From: a virus
Strand: one strand, 5' to 3'
UHGV virus genome: UHGV-1979868
Length of the DNA stretch: 17,516 bases
Shown: one piece after another, positions 9,697 through 16,499 of the stretch
How the letters are laid out: each line of letters starts with the position of its first letter
How positions within the stretch are numbered: position 1 is the first letter of the stretch
Program-made: the position numbers and the translations under genes
Notes under the pieces: generated by a model
Database searches by the model: none
What the model was told of the DNA's origin: nothing
The model's input: only the letters and a program-made list of their open reading frames with translations

Positions 9697-9902
9697 TTCA
9701 TTTTCACTTTTTTAAATCCAACGACAGACGGCTGGCATTTAAGTATTGTGAAATATTATCAAATGTAATCATCATTGATTTACAAAAGATACATTTTGCC
9801 CCGAAAGGATTCATGTCAGAAACATCAAAAGATGATGTTCTATACTGGGAACCATGACAACACGGGCATCTAAAGTGAATATGGTTTGTAATATTGTCTA
9901 CC

Positions 9903-10115
9903 TCAAAGCGCCACTACATGAACAGCGGCAGGACCTTTAGGTCCGTTCTCAATACCAAATTCAACTTCCTGATTCTCAGTTAATGTTTTGAAATCGTTGC
10001 TCTGAATTGCTGAGAAATGGACAAACACATCTTTGCTGCCATCTTTCGGCGTGATGAAACCAAAACCTTTTTCAGGGTTAAACCATTTCACTAAACCAGT
10101 CATTTTGTTAGACAT
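9903..10115 (-). CDS. cspI: Cold-shock protein CspI (CspA family)
   Basis: 70-aa [73 protein letters not shown] with RNP1/RNP2 motifs; matches CspI as I recall it. ATG at 10115 with SD, and a long 5' leader region upstream, typical of csp genes. Confidence 0.9.
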
Positions 10116-10478
10116 AATTATTACCTTTTGAAGAAATTAGCCCTTGGGCAGAATGGTCCGAAAAAAAATATCAGAGAGAAAAACCAACAAGGAAATCTCA
10201 AGAGGTACAAATAATAAAATTATAACAATGACTGCTTCAGATAAATTTGTAACAAACCAGAACACCATTAACGCATGATTAACCACCCATAGCAAGGATT
10301 ACTTTTGTAAAGAAAAACACAGCAATGAAAGAATAGCTTTATTTATTAATAATAACGTGTCATTCTGATTAAGACCTTTTATCTTACCCTTAAGATTTCA
10401 GGAATTTTGGCTCATGGAAGAGTCCTTTTTATTTAAATTTTACATTCCGCGATGTAAATGTTCCGATTTAATATTACC

Positions 10479-12506: not shown

Positions 12507-12787
12507 GAGATTGTGGTGCTTTTTGTGGGAGTCATCCACTTACGCACTTTGTTTTGCCATGCCAGCAGTTAGCTTCTGCTGTAAAACTATTCATGCAGCA
12601 AACCTGCACTTCACCACAATGGTTAGCATACTTTTCCTGATTAAGATTTTGCCAAATATGCTAGCCATTGTTTCATGTATTGGACCTCCTTACTTTTTAT
12701 TAAAGAGATCCAATATTCACTACTCTGTCCGTATCTCTACTCAGGCATCAGCCTTCTTCGTTATCGTATACAGACGAGCGATGAATT

Positions 12788-13003
12788 TTAATCAGTAATG
12801 ATGACATTTGCTGCTGCAGGACCTTTAGCACCACTCTCTATAGAGAAGGTAACCTTTTGACCTTCAAATAAGGTTCGATAATTATCATTCTGAATCGCAG
12901 AAAAATGCACAAACACATCTTTACTACCATCAACAGGAGAAATAAAGCCGAAACCTTTATCAGCGTTAAACCATTTTACTAAACCAGTCATTTTATTTGA
13001 CAT
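12788..13003 (-). CDS. cspB: Cold-shock protein CspB (CspA family)
   Basis: 71-aa [74 protein letters not shown], matching CspB as I recall it; ATG at 13003 with TAAGGA 7 nt upstream. Confidence 0.9.
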
Positions 13004-13303
13004 TCTACATTCCTTAACTTGAGCCTTTCGGCATAAATGGTTTGCATAACAGAAACGACTTCGTACTTAATTGGAGAGACTCAAAGAAGGAATAAGTGAA
13101 TAACACCTGAAATGAGAACTGCTTTAGTAAACTACTTCGTATATCGTCTGTTCTTCAAACCGACGCAATCATTAACGCATAGTTGAACATATGAAGCAAT
13201 GTTTATTTTAGACATCCAGCCATCTTCAACCCCATCAAAAAACTATAGCTTTCTTCAGGAACGTGTGTATAGTGCGCCAAGTTATCAGTATTAAGGAATT
13301 TTT

Positions 13304-13937: not shown

Positions 13938-14690
13938 TTATCTCGTCACCTTCCTCAATTGCGCTTCCGCGTATGCTTCTTCCTGCCAGCACTTTGTTAC
14001 CAGTTTACCAATGACGTCCGCATACCCCTTATACCACTGATAATCGGTCAGGTCTGGTACCAGCTTCTGGACATGACGTCGTGCCAGCGTGGTCGGTAAA
14101 CGACTAAACCGGTTTCCATTACAACGCCCACAAATCTTATATACCGGTACGCCATGAAACCGGGTTCTTTTTTCATCCAGAACAATCCCTTTACCCTTAC
14201 ACCCTCTGCACGCTGTGCTGGCTTCGCCCTTACCATGGCAATGCTGACATAGTTCCTTCACCCATTCTTCCTTGATTACAGATTCCCCGCGTCTGTAGTG
14301 TTTCACCACTTCGCGCAATACATTATAAAATCCCGTACCTGAACAATGCTCACAGCGAGCCTTACTTGCCGCAGACCTGGAGTAATCAGCAAAGGCAAAA
14401 CTCACGAGGTAAGGAATAATCTGTAACCGGATTTCTTCACTCAATTTGTTCAATGTCGGGTTATCCAGTGCCATCGCGTAATTTAGCAGGCCTTCAATCG
14501 CAAACTGAGGGTCCTGAACACCAACTTTTGCCAGAAATAAGGCCAACCCAAGTGGTGCTTTCGACTGCACCATCCCCTGCGCTGCCATTACATCCGTAAT
14601 TGTTAAACAACCGGTGCCTGTCGCTGGAGCGTCATCGCTCAATTTTGGAGATTTTGGGGAGTAATATTTTGGTAAGGCTTCAAGGTTCAT
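13938..14690 (-). CDS. quuQ: Late-gene antiterminator Q-like protein, 250 aa, with four CxxCxGxG-type repeats
   Basis: Track ORF 13938..14720; the ATG at 14690 has GGAG 7 nt upstream, and the ydfU stop sits inside that SD region. It lies immediately upstream of the candidate late promoter and the lysis module. Contains CEHCSGTG, CQHCHGKG, CRGCKGKG and CGRCNGN. The symbol is positional. Confidence 0.75.
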   Translation of the reverse strand: MNLEALPKYYSPKSPKLSDDAPATGTGCLTITDVMAAQGMVQSKAPLGLALFLAKVGVQDPQFAIEGLLNYAMALDNPTLNKLSEEIRLQIIPYLVSFAFADYSRSAASKARCEHCSGTGFYNVLREVVKHYRRGESVIKEEWVKELCQHCHGKGEASTACRGCKGKGIVLDEKRTRFHGVPVYKICGRCNGNRFSRLPTTLARRHVQKLVPDLTDYQWYKGYADVIGKLVTKCWQEEAYAEAQLRKVTR

Positions 14691-14703
14691 GCTCGTTCTC
14701 CAC

Positions 14704-15753
14704 TTACGCCAGTACGCCAATTGCCAGCGCGCGATCGATAAAACGAAATATCAGCTCCAGTTGGGAGCCATACTTATCTTCAAATGCCACTGTATCCGTA
14801 TGCAGCTCGTTGTGATGCTTTCTGCACAAAGGCAACACAAAGAGATCATGTGCTTTTGTTCCCATTCCGCCCTGCCCGTGACCAATCAGATGATGCGGAT
14901 CGTCGGCTGGCATACCGCAGCAAGCACACGGCTGTGTCTTAACCCAACGTGTGTATTTCTCCTTAACCCAGCGGCGACGTTTAGGCAGCTTCATGAAAGA
15001 TTCCGGAGACTCTGGATCAACGGTGATGCTTACCACCGTCTTTTCCTGTGGTGATTTTTGTTGCTGGTGGGCGTAAGGCAACGGTGCAAGATTTTTTGTG
15101 CGTTGTTTCAATATGCTGGTGGCGGTCTGCTCTCCCGGTACGATGTCGCTTTCGCGGTACACCGAGCAGATTTTTTCCGCTGGTAATCCCAGCGAACGAC
15201 GCGATACAGCCTCAGGTAGTGCATCCACCACCTGATTGCAGACCGCCCACCAGGATAATTCAGCCAAAGATAATTCCCGCTCCTGCGTACCGCTTATTGC
15301 GTGACGGATGACGTCAATCACCCATGCTGTCAGATTTTGTTGAGCAAGCAGCTCCAGTGATTCCGATGTCTGGTCACGCAGTTGGTTGTCGCAGTGCCAG
15401 CACAACACCATTGCGCCGGTACCATAACGGTGAATGACTGTTTCAGTGTGATGGTAATCGCCATTAGGCCACTGGCAGGATGTAACATGACGTAATAGCC
15501 AGTCGGACAATGCGCCAACGCCGCCAGCAGCACGAATCACCCGTTCGTTACTAAAAAACGGCAGCAATGTTTTGTCTTCCGCCAGCGGCTGGCGAACGGC
15601 AGGAACGACTCCGGATGGCAGATTACGCATGCTTTTTGGTTCCGGTTCCACCAGCACTCGAGGATTATGAAATATCTGTATGGATTCACGGCCCGGCTTA
15701 AGGACCACCAGCCCAAGCTCAGGCACCAGAACAGGTCTAAGTAATACCCGCAC
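14704..15753 (-). CDS. ydfU: DUF968-like prophage protein with C-terminal HNH-type nuclease motif (NinG/Rap-position protein)
   Basis: Track ORF 14704..15792. The in-frame GTG at 15753-15751 is preceded by GGAGG 4 nt upstream and sits 1 nt after the stop of the upstream 92-aa ORF, giving 349 aa. The C-terminus reads ...QPCACCGMPADDPHHLIGHGQGGMGTKAHDLFVLPLCRKHHNELH (CxxC, HH, N, H). The start is uncertain (15792, 15753 or the internal ATG at 15630). Confidence 0.65.
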   Translation of the reverse strand: MRVLLRPVLVPELGLVVLKPGRESIQIFHNPRVLVEPEPKSMRNLPSGVVPAVRQPLAEDKTLLPFFSNERVIRAAGGVGALSDWLLRHVTSCQWPNGDYHHTETVIHRYGTGAMVLCWHCDNQLRDQTSESLELLAQQNLTAWVIDVIRHAISGTQERELSLAELSWWAVCNQVVDALPEAVSRRSLGLPAEKICSVYRESDIVPGEQTATSILKQRTKNLAPLPYAHQQQKSPQEKTVVSITVDPESPESFMKLPKRRRWVKEKYTRWVKTQPCACCGMPADDPHHLIGHGQGGMGTKAHDLFVLPLCRKHHNELHTDTVAFEDKYGSQLELIFRFIDRALAIGVLA

Positions 15754-15754
15754 G

Positions 15755-16033
15755 TTACCTCCAGATCCGTTGCTGGAAAGTGCGGGACGCACGTGGTGGG
15801 CGTTCGGAATAAGGCAGCCTGACAGAGATTATCCAGTGCCGATAGTCGAGACTGAGAGCTTTCTTAACCTCGAACCCGCGCCTGCGGTAAGAATGAATCA
15901 GCCATTCGGCCTGTTCTGCAGTGCATGGAGGGTGCTGGAACCATTCAGACTTGAATGCGTGAGAATACCGCCCGTGCGTGCAGGCAAGAACGGGCGAATT
16001 ATCAGAATTGTAATATTTTGCGTTGCGTGCCAT
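15755..16033 (-). CDS. Hypothetical protein, 92 aa, translationally coupled to the ydfU-like gene
   Basis: ORF MARNAKYYNSDNSPVLACTHGRYSHAFKSEWFQHPPCTAEQAEWLIHSYRRRGFEVKK...; ATG at 16033 with GGAGA 6 nt upstream. Its stop lies 1 nt before the ydfU GTG, and the ydfU SD is inside its 3' end. I recognise no family. Confidence 0.45.
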   Translation of the reverse strand: MARNAKYYNSDNSPVLACTHGRYSHAFKSEWFQHPPCTAEQAEWLIHSYRRRGFEVKKALSLDYRHWIISVRLPYSERPPRASRTFQQRIWR

Positions 16034-16099
16034 CGGTTTTCTCCGGTGGCACGGTGTTACTCAGCGGGAGTTCAGCCCCGCGCAAGATTGTAGATGAGT

Positions 16100-16351
16100 T
16101 TATTCTCCTGAAAAAGCAGAAAAGCCAGCTTTTATTCCGATCTCTTTCAATGCCTGTAATGAAGTGACAAACTCACCTTCGCGCAAGATAAATCCGTCCG
16201 TGACCCGAGCATCCACAAAATTAATTAACGCAGCCCCATTCTTTCGCAAACACATAATGCGGTAATGACTAACAAGATTTCCATTTTCAACGCACACAGC
16301 ATAGAGGCCATCTTCACAAAAAATTTTACGCAGTTCTTCGATGTTCATCAT
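16100..16351 (-). CDS. Hypothetical small protein, 83 aa (positional equivalent of Qin rem)
   Basis: ORF MMNIEELRKIFCEDGLYAVCVENGNLVSHYRIMCLRKNGAALINFVDARVTDGFILREGEFVTSLQALKEIGIKAGFSAFSGE; ATGATG at 16351-16346 with GGAAGGA 5 nt upstream. It lies between the hokD terminator and the 92-aa ORF. Confidence 0.5.
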   Translation of the reverse strand: MMNIEELRKIFCEDGLYAVCVENGNLVSHYRIMCLRKNGAALINFVDARVTDGFILREGEFVTSLQALKEIGIKAGFSAFSGE

Positions 16352-16467
16352 CAGAATCCTTCCGGATAATTAGCTCTCCCCTTTAAGGGACCATCCCTCT
16401 TATCCCTGCGCGCTACTTAAGTATTTTTGATTCTATTCCGGCACCGTCCAGAACTTCAAACGCGTTG

Positions 16468-16499
16468 AAAATAAAAACAAAAACCCGCCGAAGCGGGTT
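16468..16499 (-). terminator. Rho-independent terminator of the relB-relE-hokD operon
   Basis: Minus strand AACCCGCTTCGGCGGGTTTTTGTTTTTATTTT: GC hairpin with UUCG loop plus a long T-tract, about 70 nt after the hokD stop. Confidence 0.65.

What the first reader, a model, noticed from the sequence alone, without database searches (positions are those of the whole stretch)
14704..16033. DUF968-like protein with HNH nuclease motif, translationally coupled to an unknown 92-aa ORF
The C-terminus of the large ORF has the elements of an HNH nuclease (CxxC...DPHHL...N...CRKHHNELH). It occupies the slot between Q and the early/nin side where lambda has NinG/Rap, which I recall as a structure-specific endonuclease. 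The most likely start is the GTG at 15753, with GGAGG 4 nt upstream. The 92-aa ORF upstream ends 1 nt before that GTG (TAAcGTG), a classic translational coupling. The 92-aa product has no motif I can place, and I am not sure it is annotated in K-12 Qin.
Basis: partly seen in the sequence, partly recalled or inferred. Interest (0 to 1): 0.45.

Follow-up and report, generated by a model that had tools for sequence, protein, structure and literature searches.

The report
Qin prophage HNH nuclease plus unannotated gene
This is the recombination ("nin") corner of the cryptic E. coli K-12 prophage Qin: ydfU encodes a computationally classified HNH-type DNA nuclease, and the 92-codon frame in front of it is a real, conserved phage gene missing from the MG1655 reference annotation whose function is still unknown.

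Summary
The window is E. coli K-12 Qin. ydfU (14704-15753, minus strand, GTG start, 349 aa) is a strong DUF968 match. Its C-terminal ~90 residues carry a zinc-stabilised HNH (His-Me finger) nuclease motif, and published work had already placed YdfU in that superfamily.

The 92-aa ORF (15755-16033) stops 1 nt before the ydfU GTG, with GGAGG 4 nt upstream of that start. This junction is essentially invariant across about 150 related loci.

The ORF is absent from NC_000913.3, but PGAP calls it a hypothetical protein in other K-12 assemblies. It belongs to phage family phrog_1212, normally 66 aa. Its core and tail are under strong purifying selection (dN/dS about 0.1).

Its 26-residue N-terminal extension is disordered and nearly neutral. 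The extension's leader and start codon derive from a lost upstream DUF1367 gene, which PHROGs labels NinB/Orf-like.

In relatives the small gene usually sits directly 5' of a junction nuclease: NinG, YbcO, DUF968 or RusA. It is not an obligate partner, because most YdfU homologues, including P1 PdcB, lack it.

The predicted fold, a beta-alpha-beta-beta mini-domain, gives no clue to function. The module is ordinary, with one small annotation gap. Interest is low to moderate.

The parts
14704..15753 (-). ydfU (b1560), 349 aa, GTG start. A two-part protein: an N-terminal domain of unknown fold, a disordered linker, and a C-terminal HNH nuclease domain.
   Evidence: ORF and sequence. RefSeq coordinates. 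Pfam DUF968 E=1.4e-76 over residues 160-346. phrog_96 over the full length, E=2.8e-171.
14707..14952 (-). HNH / His-Me finger nuclease domain of YdfU, residues about 268-349: CxxC, DPHH, GTKAHD, CRKHHNELH.
15184..15753 (-). N-terminal domain of YdfU, residues 1 to about 190. It contains an invariant Cys/His cluster (C93, H101, C118, H120, C121) at 15385-15477. Fold and function are unknown.
   Evidence: phrog_11007 matches residues 2-134. Invariant columns. The AF2 model has low confidence here. No relation was detected to DUF1367 or lambda NinB.
15755..16033 (-). 92-aa ORF, a member of phrog_1212. It is not annotated in NC_000913.3 and is WP_012304870.1 in PGAP annotations.
   Evidence: dN/dS is 0.22 overall.
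15956..16033 (-). Lineage-specific N-terminal extension, codons 1-26, predicted disordered and nearly neutral. The start codon and leader are inherited from a lost DUF1367 gene.
   Evidence: pLDDT below 50. dN/dS 0.71. The leader plus ATGGCGCA aligns to DUF1367 gene starts with score 67 against a shuffle maximum of 28. Homology to the 66-aa form begins at codon 28.
15812..15949 (-). Conserved beta-alpha-beta-beta core of the small protein, residues 29-74.
   Evidence: AF2 pLDDT above 90. dN/dS 0.11. Family alignments.
15758..15811 (-). Almost invariant Pro/Arg-rich C-terminal tail (PYSERPPRxSRTFQQRIWR). Its last codons contain the ydfU Shine-Dalgarno sequence.
   Evidence: Invariant columns. 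dN/dS 0.08 with reduced synonymous divergence.
15751..15762 (-). Coupling junction GGAGG-TAA-C-GTG: the ydfU Shine-Dalgarno sequence, the small ORF stop, a 1-nt spacer, and the ydfU start.
   Evidence: Sequence. Kept in 148 of 150 loci from 51 alleles.
16034..16099 (-). Leader between rem and the small ORF, with GGAG at 16041-16044, 7 nt before the ATG. It is part of a C-rich, G-poor stretch (16120-15880 on the sense strand) where a published Rho-dependent terminator 'upstream of ydfU' most likely acts.
   Evidence: Sequence. Composition. PMC9160355 text and supplement: rem is unchanged and ydfU rises in rho/nusG mutants and with bicyclomycin. The exact location of the terminator is inferred.
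13938..14690 (-). ydfT/quuQ, the Q-type late antiterminator that follows ydfU after a 13-nt gap. It defines the 'last gene before Q' slot.
   Evidence: Pfam Antiterm E=4.2e-54. RefSeq coordinates.
16100..16351 (-). rem, the upstream neighbour of the small ORF in Qin-type prophages (phrog_340, function unknown).
   Evidence: Upstream ORFs in related loci.

Best explanation
The locus is the distal end of the early 'nin' operon of a lambdoid prophage, the stretch that carries accessory recombination genes just before the late regulator Q.

**YdfU.** It is a DNA endonuclease whose C-terminal domain is a zinc-stabilised HNH (beta-beta-alpha-metal) module. The zinc site would be C276/C279/C310/H313. 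H288 would be the general base, D303 would hold the 'N' position, and H314/H318 would sit at the metal site. It occupies the position that NinG/Rap, or YbcO plus RusA, occupies in sister phages. It therefore most likely cuts branched or D-loop-type recombination and replication intermediates during lytic growth. That step is inferred from homology and position, not shown.

**The 92-aa ORF.** It is a genuine protein-coding gene of a small Enterobacterales phage family (phrog_1212, typically 66 aa). It has a beta-alpha-beta-beta core and a conserved Pro/Arg-rich tail ending QQRxW.

**Origin of the long form.** In the Qin lineage the upstream DUF1367 gene, which PHROGs labels NinB/Orf-like, was lost. 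The small gene kept that gene's ribosome-binding region and first codons. This produced a 26-residue, unconstrained N-terminal extension.

**Expression.** The small ORF's stop lies 1 nt before the ydfU GTG, and the ydfU Shine-Dalgarno sequence lies in its last codons. Ribosomes finishing the small ORF are therefore positioned to initiate ydfU. This coupling is inferred from architecture. In the K-12 lysogen, Rho-dependent termination upstream of ydfU keeps both genes largely silent.

**Function of the small protein.** It is unknown. The most likely role is an accessory, non-enzymatic factor of the nin recombination module, for example an adaptor to a host or phage DNA-metabolism protein. It is not a dedicated partner of YdfU.
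For: **Identity of the locus.** The 1.8-kb query around the finding (window 14600-16400) is 100% identical to K-12 Qin.

**YdfU as an HNH nuclease.**
- Pfam DUF968 at 256.8 bits; phrog_96 'HNH endonuclease' over the full length.
- Motif alignment to McrA and YbcO.
- Published classification of YdfU with YbcO in His-Me finger group 7 (PMC5714182).

**Slot equivalence.** In relatives the small gene is followed by NinG, YbcO+RusA, RusA or a mini-DUF968 HNH protein. YdfU homologues directly precede Q in cdtI, mEp390 and a Klebsiella phage, and precede the late activator lpa in P1.

**The small ORF is a real gene.**
- 129 close homologues, 76 representative clusters at 50% identity, and a phrog_1212 match.
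- dN/dS 0.11 in the core and 0.08 in the tail; length variants are 92 or 90 aa only.
- Conserved ATG with an upstream GGAG.
- Confident AF2 core.

**Origin of the extension.**

**Coupling architecture.**

**Silencing by Rho.** PMC9160355 and the C>G composition of the sense strand.

**Accessory nature.** P1 pdcB, a full-length YdfU homologue, is non-essential (PMC10695390).
Against: - No nuclease activity, substrate preference or protein expression has been measured for YdfU or the small protein.
- The YdfU model is poor overall (mean pLDDT 60), so only the HNH part is interpretable.
- The N-terminal domain of YdfU has no assignable fold.
- The recombination role of the small protein rests on gene neighbourhood alone. 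That neighbourhood is variable in one clade, where NinX-like, zinc-finger, methylase and pyrophosphohydrolase-like genes follow it.
- The DUF1367 = NinB/Orf label is the PHROG annotation only. My shallow hhalign against lambda NinB did not confirm it.
Confidence: 0.72

Rival explanations
1. The small protein is a dedicated regulator or inhibitor ('immunity' or chaperone subunit) of the downstream His-Me nuclease. On this view it is made in fixed ratio through translational coupling and keeps a potentially toxic nuclease in check or targets it to branched DNA.
For: - 69 of 93 distinct small-protein alleles sampled are followed directly (overlap or at most 3 nt) by a His-Me nuclease gene from one of three families: DUF968, NinG or YbcO.
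- Three more alleles are followed by a classical HNH gene (L265, L270, L277).
- The junction with ydfU is essentially invariant.
- The tail is conserved as strongly as a binding peptide would be.
- One phage record labels the ORF 'toxin to Rem', an annotation given without evidence.
Against: - Co-occurrence is one-sided. YdfU-family proteins occur in 173 phage records at near full length, while the small gene occurs in only 57. cdtI, mEp390, Klebsiella phage 1 LV-2017 and P1 have a YdfU homologue with no small gene within 2.5 kb.
- One partner would have to recognise three different nuclease families.
- In one clade the downstream gene is not a nuclease.
- In PY54 the gene sits between an RdgC-like gene and an unrelated ORF.
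- There are no PADLOC or toxin-antitoxin profile hits.
Confidence: 0.15
2. In K-12 the 92-codon frame is not a functional gene. It would be a decaying remnant, or mainly a cis-acting leader (rut site or nin-type terminator region plus the ribosome delivery site for ydfU), whose peptide product is irrelevant.
For: - It is not annotated in NC_000913.3.
- The first 26 codons are nearly neutral (dN/dS 0.71) and arose from a deletion.
- The region is C-rich and G-poor on the sense strand.
- A very strong Rho-dependent terminator is reported upstream of ydfU.
- Synonymous divergence is lower in the last 18 codons, as expected if the RNA itself is constrained.
Against: - Codons 27-92 are under strong purifying selection at the protein level across 51 alleles (dN/dS about 0.1).
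- The same 66-residue domain is conserved at 35-50% identity in Salmonella, Klebsiella, Citrobacter, Yersinia and Edwardsiella phages with unrelated flanks.
- The frame is intact in every locus sampled, and length changes are whole codons.
- AF2 predicts a compact, confident core.
- The K-12 allele is identical to alleles in many viral contigs, and a 98.9% identical copy occurs in phage PhiR42_1.
Confidence: 0.08
3. YdfU is not a recombination nuclease. It would be an Orf-like single-strand DNA-binding mediator fused to HNH, the single-strand-specific DNase proposed for Gram-positive DUF968 proteins, or a nuclease with another role such as host DNA degradation, anti-defence, or a packaging-associated HNH.
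For: - Curtis et al. 2014 describe DUF968 proteins of Listeria and Staphylococcus phages as Orf-like N-domains fused to HNH (PMC4118853).
- In the Qin lineage the separate NinB/Orf-like DUF1367 gene is missing, so YdfU's own N-domain could substitute for it.
- The closest solved structure is P1 Ref, a RecA-dependent nuclease.
Against: - hhalign of the YdfU profile against lambda NinB and against DUF1367 gives probabilities of 0.3% and 1.4%, though the profiles are shallow.
- The gene lies far from the terminase genes in lambdoid phages, so a packaging role is unlikely there.
- No PADLOC match.
Confidence: 0.05

Closest known systems
DUF968 / DUF1364 His-Me finger nucleases (group 7 of Jablonska et al. 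2017; YbcO of prophage DLP12, PDB 3g27)
   Same: - YdfU is itself a named member of this group.
- It matches PF06147 at 256.8 bits.
- It shares the CxxC...H...G(T)K..D...CxxH/C-H motif with YbcO.
- It sits in the same slot before RusA/Q.
   Different: YdfU is about 350 aa with an extra 190-residue N-terminal domain and a disordered linker, whereas YbcO is about 96 aa and is the bare nuclease domain. No biochemistry has been reported for either protein in the papers read.
Lambda NinG/Rap, a branch-specific endonuclease (PF05766)
   Same: - Same position in the nin operon.
- The homologous small gene (phrog_1212) is followed by NinG in Gifsy-2 and many Salmonella and Citrobacter prophages, exactly where Qin has ydfU.
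- Both belong to the His-Me finger superfamily according to PMC5714182.
   Different: YdfU has no PF05766 hit at E<=1, and its domain architecture differs. Rap's activity on D-loops and Holliday junctions has been shown experimentally, whereas for YdfU it is only inferred.
Phage P1 PdcB (P1_gp107) and P1 Ref (PDB 3plw)
   Same: - PdcB is a full-length homologue: 26% identity over 91% of YdfU, in the same phrog_96 and phrog_11007 families.
- PdcB also lies just before the late-gene activator and downstream of a toxin-antitoxin pair (phd-doc in P1, relBE-hokD in Qin).
   Different: - PdcB's upstream 66-aa gene pdcA is unrelated to the Qin small ORF (hhalign probability 0.1%).
- PdcB's function is unknown and the gene is non-essential.
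- Ref is a small single-domain protein that depends on RecA filaments. The Pfam RecA_dep_nuc match to YdfU is below threshold (17.8 bits against 26.9).
phrog_1212, a phage protein family of unknown function (e.g. Gifsy-2 STM1021.1n, mEp237_051, PY54 ORF47)
   Same: Residues 27-92 of the Qin ORF match the whole 66-residue profile (E=1.7e-35). The conserved positions are shared (W31, F32, Y49, D63, L73, P74, W91). All members lie in the nin or early region.
   Different: The Escherichia form carries a 24-26 residue N-terminal extension and lacks the preceding DUF1367 gene. Its downstream partner is DUF968 rather than NinG or YbcO.

Membership tests
DUF968 (PF06147) / His-Me finger (HNH) nucleases | Profile match above the curated threshold | tested here: met
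   PF06147 E=1.4e-76, 256.8 bits against a 27.8 cut-off, covering the full profile 1-171. phrog_96 'HNH endonuclease' E=2.8e-171.
DUF968 (PF06147) / His-Me finger (HNH) nucleases | Beta-beta-alpha-metal core with a catalytic His and metal-ligand His/Asp, conserved across the family | tested here: met
DUF968 (PF06147) / His-Me finger (HNH) nucleases | Structural zinc site made of two Cys/His pairs flanking the active site | tested here: met
   C276-x2-C279 and C310-x2-H313. C276, C279 and C310 are invariant. Metal binding itself was not tested.
DUF968 (PF06147) / His-Me finger (HNH) nucleases | Metal-dependent DNA cleavage | not testable with these tools
   This needs purified protein. No report of such an experiment appeared in the papers searched.
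NinG/Rap (PF05766) | Sequence membership in the NinG family | tested here: not met
   No PF05766 hit at E<=1. My NinG HMM did not hit YdfU ORFs, while it hit 89 NinG ORFs in related loci. YdfU is a positional analogue, not a member.
Orf(NinB)-HNH fusion proteins (Curtis et al. 2014, Gram-positive DUF968) | N-terminal domain homologous to lambda Orf/NinB | tested here: inconclusive
phrog_1212 (small ORF) | Full-length profile match and shared conserved residues | tested here: met
   E=1.7e-35, residues 27-92 against profile positions 1-66 of 66. An exhaustive HMMER search finds 76 representative clusters, mostly 66-69 aa. Alignments.
Protein-coding gene (small ORF) | Purifying selection on the frame, intact frame across alleles, and a plausible initiation site | tested here: met
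   dN/dS 0.11 in the core and 0.08 in the tail; lengths of 92 or 90 aa only. Conserved ATG with GGAG 7 nt upstream in the K-12 type. Translation itself was not tested.
Translationally coupled gene pair | The upstream stop lies within a few nt of the downstream start, with the Shine-Dalgarno sequence inside the upstream ORF | tested here: met
   GGAGG-TAA-C-GTG, essentially invariant in 150 loci. Whether ydfU translation depends on translation of the small ORF cannot be tested here.
Nuclease-inhibitor / toxin-antitoxin-like obligate pair | Consistent co-occurrence of the two partners in both directions | tested here: not met
   The small gene implies a nuclease neighbour in about 74% of alleles. 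The reverse does not hold: 173 phage records carry a near-full-length YdfU homologue against 57 with the small gene. Four checked loci lack the small gene. No PADLOC hits.

The most novel reading that the evidence does not exclude
phrog_1212 proteins would be a previously unrecognised general accessory subunit of lambdoid recombination modules. On this reading the small beta-alpha-beta-beta domain docks through its invariant Pro/Arg-rich ...QQRxW tail onto a common host or phage DNA-metabolism factor (for example SSB, RecA, or the NinB/Orf-like DUF1367 protein). It would thereby recruit or restrain whichever junction nuclease (NinG, YbcO, DUF968 or RusA) is encoded directly downstream. That would explain why the gene is kept immediately 5' of interchangeable nuclease cassettes and is translationally coupled to them.
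Probability: 0.2. Interest if true: 0.55.

Novelty: new member of a known kind. Interest (0 to 1): 0.3.

Why it matters
The practical value is modest but real in four respects.

1. The E. coli K-12 MG1655 reference annotation lacks a conserved 92-codon gene between rem and ydfU. That gene is under clear purifying selection and is widespread in Escherichia prophages, including O157:H7 prophages and PPompW elements recorded within Stx2a-phage entries. The 346-nt stretch treated as intergenic is therefore mostly coding. This affects how the Rho-dependent terminator reported there should be interpreted.
2. YdfU/PdcB-type proteins are among the most common uncharacterised nucleases of enterobacterial prophages. 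They sit in the slot held by Rap, YbcO and RusA, so they are obvious candidates for the still incomplete biochemistry of phage nin-region recombination.
3. The small gene gives a clean example of how mosaic phage evolution builds a new N-terminus, by reusing the translation-initiation region of a deleted neighbour.
4. Nothing here suggests a new kind of system.

Tried and rejected
- **The search for related loci with the family alignment** failed because no stretch was conserved enough. I used six single-protein scans instead.
- **Sequence-only PDB searches** with YdfU, as a single sequence and as a profile, gave only sub-threshold hits: McrA E=0.6 and YbcO E=1.6.
- **NCBIfam** gave nothing for YdfU or the small ORF. 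**PADLOC** gave nothing. **Rfam** gave nothing in the region.
- **Idea: YdfU's N-domain is a displaced DUF1367/NinB domain.** No support was found.
- **Idea: the middle of the N-terminal extension is the 3' end of DUF1367 read in another frame.** No DNA similarity beyond the leader and first three codons.
- **Idea: P1 PdcA (66 aa, upstream of the YdfU homologue PdcB) is the same small protein.** Rejected.
- **Idea: lambda NinD, NinE, NinF or NinH is the same family.** Rejected, as they fall in different PHROGs.
- **Domain fusions as functional clues.** The few long proteins containing the domain (P0306, P0273, P0288) look like deletion or frameshift chimeras or spurious repeats.
- **Weak phrog_4916 match** of the small ORF. 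That family otherwise matches the NinG C-terminus. I judged it a chance helix similarity.
Full report
**Where we are.** The 1.8-kb query around the finding (window 14600-16400) is 100% identical to E. coli K-12 chromosomes. The annotated records place it in the cryptic lambdoid prophage Qin. On the minus strand the order is relB, relE, hokD, rem (16100-16351), the 92-codon ORF (15755-16033), ydfU (14704-15753) and ydfT/quuQ (13938-14690, a Q-type antiterminator; Pfam Antiterm E=4.2e-54).

- The junction reads TGGAGGTAACGTG. That is GGAGG at 15758-15762, the TAA stop of the small ORF at 15755-15757, one C, and the ydfU GTG at 15751-15753.
- The C-terminus of the large ORF reads CACCG...DDPHHLIGHG...GTKAHDLFVLPLCRKHHNELH.
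- The GTG at 15753 is the start RefSeq uses for the 349-aa protein NP_416078.4. An older 362-aa model, cited in the phage P1 record, corresponds to the upstream GTG at 15792.
- In MG1655 (NC_000913.3) nothing is annotated between ydfU and rem. PGAP calls the 92-aa frame a hypothetical protein (WP_012304870.1) in a DH5a assembly, and the equivalent frame a hypothetical protein in O157:H7 and many other genomes.

**YdfU.**

- Pfam DUF968 matches residues 160-346 at E=1.4e-76. HNHc_6 falls just below its cut-off (26.3 bits against 26.6), and RecA_dep_nuc matches weakly.
- PHROGs place the whole protein in phrog_96, 'HNH endonuclease', at E=2.8e-171. Residues 2-134 also match phrog_11007.
- A profile of 35 homologues aligns the motif region to the HNH domain of EcoKMcrA (6ghc) and to YbcO (3g27), though below significance.
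- The AlphaFold model is poor overall (mean pLDDT 60). Its linker at residues 194-269 is disordered and its C-terminal region is moderately confident.
- Invariant residues fit a zinc site of C276/C279/C310/H313. H288 would be the catalytic histidine, D303 would hold the 'N' position, and H314/H318 would sit at the metal site.
- This assignment is not new. Jablonska et al. (PMC5714182) list YdfU with YbcO in His-Me finger group 7 and suggest a recombination role. Curtis et al. (PMC4118853) discuss DUF968 proteins of Gram-positive phages as Orf-like domains fused to HNH.
- For YdfU I could not confirm an Orf-like N-domain. hhalign gives probabilities of 0.3% against lambda NinB and 1.4% against DUF1367. 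The test is weak because the profile is shallow.
- The N-domain carries an invariant Cys/His cluster (C93, H101, C118, H120, C121). Its fold is unknown.

**The 92-aa ORF is a real gene.**

- It has no Pfam or NCBIfam family, but residues 27-92 match the entire 66-residue profile of phrog_1212 at E=1.7e-35.
- Close homologues of 90-92 aa are abundant in Escherichia and Shigella.
- An exhaustive HMMER search of 1.84 billion representatives finds only 76 clusters, mostly 66-69 aa. Named members found by a further search and in phage records come from Citrobacter, Klebsiella, Salmonella, Raoultella, Enterobacter, Yersinia and Edwardsiella.
- Across 51 distinct Escherichia alleles drawn from about 150 viral contigs, dN/dS is 0.11 for codons 27-74 and 0.08 for codons 75-92. 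It is 0.71 for codons 1-26. Lengths are 92 or 90 aa only.
- AlphaFold, run with a 53-sequence alignment, predicts a disordered N-terminus (residues 1-26). It predicts a confident beta-alpha-beta-beta core (residues 29-74, pLDDT above 90) and an extended tail.

**Origin of the long form.**

- In most relatives the 66-aa gene is immediately preceded by a DUF1367 gene, and the two are contiguous in the gene calls (the same coordinate ends one gene and starts the next). PHROGs label that family (phrog_319) 'NinB/Orf homologous recombination mediator'. That is their label; my shallow hhalign against lambda NinB did not reproduce it.
- Qin-type loci lack DUF1367.
- The approximately 45 nt upstream of the 92-aa ORF, plus its ATGGCGCA start, align with the leader and start of DUF1367 genes. 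The local alignment score is 67, against a maximum of 28 in 500 shuffles.
- Similarity to the short gene begins only at codon 28.
- So the long form arose when DUF1367 was lost and its initiation region was joined to the small gene through about 24 unconstrained codons.

**Neighbourhood census.** I collected 278 loci and classified the neighbours of the small gene with HMMs built from my own alignments.

- Of 93 distinct small-protein cores, 35 are followed directly by YdfU/DUF968, 30 by NinG, 3 by YbcO/DUF1364 and 1 by a 100-aa mini-DUF968 protein.
- Ten run into contig ends.
- The remaining 24 are followed by RusA, a classical HNH gene (L265, L270, L277), NinX-like genes, zinc-finger genes, a methylase, or other genes. 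Most of these belong to one divergent clade, the one recovered with query P0301 (loci L259-L280 and L014).
- In PY54 the gene lies between an RdgC-like gene and an unrelated ORF.
- The reverse association is weak. tblastn finds near-full-length YdfU homologues in 173 phage records, but the small gene in only 57.
- Phage cdtI, mEp390, Klebsiella phage 1 LV-2017 and P1 (pdcB) have a YdfU homologue and no small gene within 2.5 kb.
- P1's 66-aa pdcA, upstream of pdcB, is unrelated. P1 pdcB is non-essential and of unknown function.
- The small protein is therefore a nin-region gene that usually sits directly before an interchangeable nuclease cassette. It is not an obligate YdfU partner.

**Expression logic.**

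- The stop-start junction GGAGG-TAAC-GTG is kept in 148 of 150 loci, while synonymous changes accumulate just upstream. That is the architecture of translational coupling, but coupling itself is untested.
- A hairpin followed by a run of T at 16482-16499 ends the relBE-hokD unit.
- The sense strand from about 16120 to 15880, covering the leader and the first half of the small ORF, is C-rich and G-poor. rem, by contrast, is G-rich.
- PMC9160355 lists the terminator upstream of ydfU among the strongest Rho-dependent terminators in E. coli. Its supplement shows rem unchanged while ydfU rises by about 1.4-2.8 (units not stated in the table) in nusG and rho mutants and with bicyclomycin.
- I infer that the terminator acts in or near the small ORF, as the nin-region terminators do in lambda (established knowledge, not tested here). 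I also infer that both genes are largely silent in the K-12 lysogen.
- Absence of Ribo-seq signal in ordinary K-12 cultures would therefore not show a pseudogene.

**Verdict.**

- The HNH assignment was already in the literature and databases.
- The 92-aa ORF is a real, conserved but uncharacterised phage gene that the MG1655 reference annotation misses.
- Its long N-terminus is an evolutionary by-product.
- Its function remains unknown. The best guess is an accessory factor of the nin recombination module (about 0.7 for the overall picture). A dedicated nuclease-regulator role is a less likely rival (0.15).
- There are no defence-system, toxin-antitoxin or RNA-family signals.
- Interest is low to moderate.

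Noticed in passing
window 15880-16120 (minus strand sense): The leader and the first half of the 92-aa ORF are C-rich and G-poor (C minus G up to +0.14), while the adjacent rem gene is G-rich (-0.15). This coincides with the interval in which PMC9160355 reports one of the strongest Rho-dependent terminators in E. coli ('upstream of ydfU'). That paper treats the interval as upstream of ydfU, yet most of it is coding.
   Followed up: partly
window 16482-16499 (minus strand): An intrinsic-terminator-like hairpin (AACCCGCTTCGGCGGGTT followed by a run of T) lies just downstream of hokD and upstream of rem. It probably ends the relBE-hokD transcription unit. A weak promoter-like site follows at 16430-16459.
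   Followed up: no
L286 (phage P1, NC_005856.1 88046-89902): P1 carries phd-doc, then pdcA (66 aa), then pdcB (a full-length YdfU homologue), then the late activator lpa. This parallels Qin's relBE-hokD, rem, small ORF, ydfU and Q. PdcA is nevertheless unrelated to the Qin small protein. The recurring arrangement of a toxin-antitoxin pair, a YdfU-type nuclease and a late regulator is unexplained.
   Followed up: partly
L006 (phage vB_EcoS-689R5, ON470583.1 15700-15978): The depositors labelled the homologue of the 92-aa ORF 'toxin to Rem'. I found no evidence or source for this label, and there were no PADLOC or toxin-antitoxin profile hits.
   Followed up: partly
window 12772-13164 and 9876-10261 (minus strand): Two full-length matches to the Rfam cspA thermoregulator 5'UTR (158.8 and 112.8 bits). 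They belong to the prophage cold-shock genes cspB and cspI.
   Followed up: no
window 13938-14720: The longest frame for the Q antiterminator starts at a TTG at 14720 and overlaps the end of ydfU by 17 nt (260 aa). RefSeq uses the ATG at 14690 (250 aa), leaving a 13-nt gap after the ydfU stop.
   Followed up: no
window 15758-15811 (tail of the small ORF): Synonymous divergence in the last 18 codons (pS 0.23) is about half that of the core (0.42). This suggests an extra constraint on the RNA itself, such as the ydfU ribosome-binding site or a structure, on top of protein-level selection.
   Followed up: no
P0273, P0306 (proteins): These are single chimeric ORFs. In P0273 the small domain runs into a mini-DUF968 HNH gene. 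In P0306 a replication-protein-O-like N-terminus is joined to the small domain. They look like frameshift or deletion products in decaying prophages rather than real fusions.
   Followed up: partly
L265, L270, L277 (viral contigs): In the divergent clade recovered with query P0301, the slot after the small gene is hypervariable. It holds NinX-like genes, Cys-rich zinc-finger genes, a classical HNH endonuclease, a methylase, or a pyrophosphohydrolase-like gene. Each starts at an ATG that overlaps the small gene's stop.
   Followed up: partly
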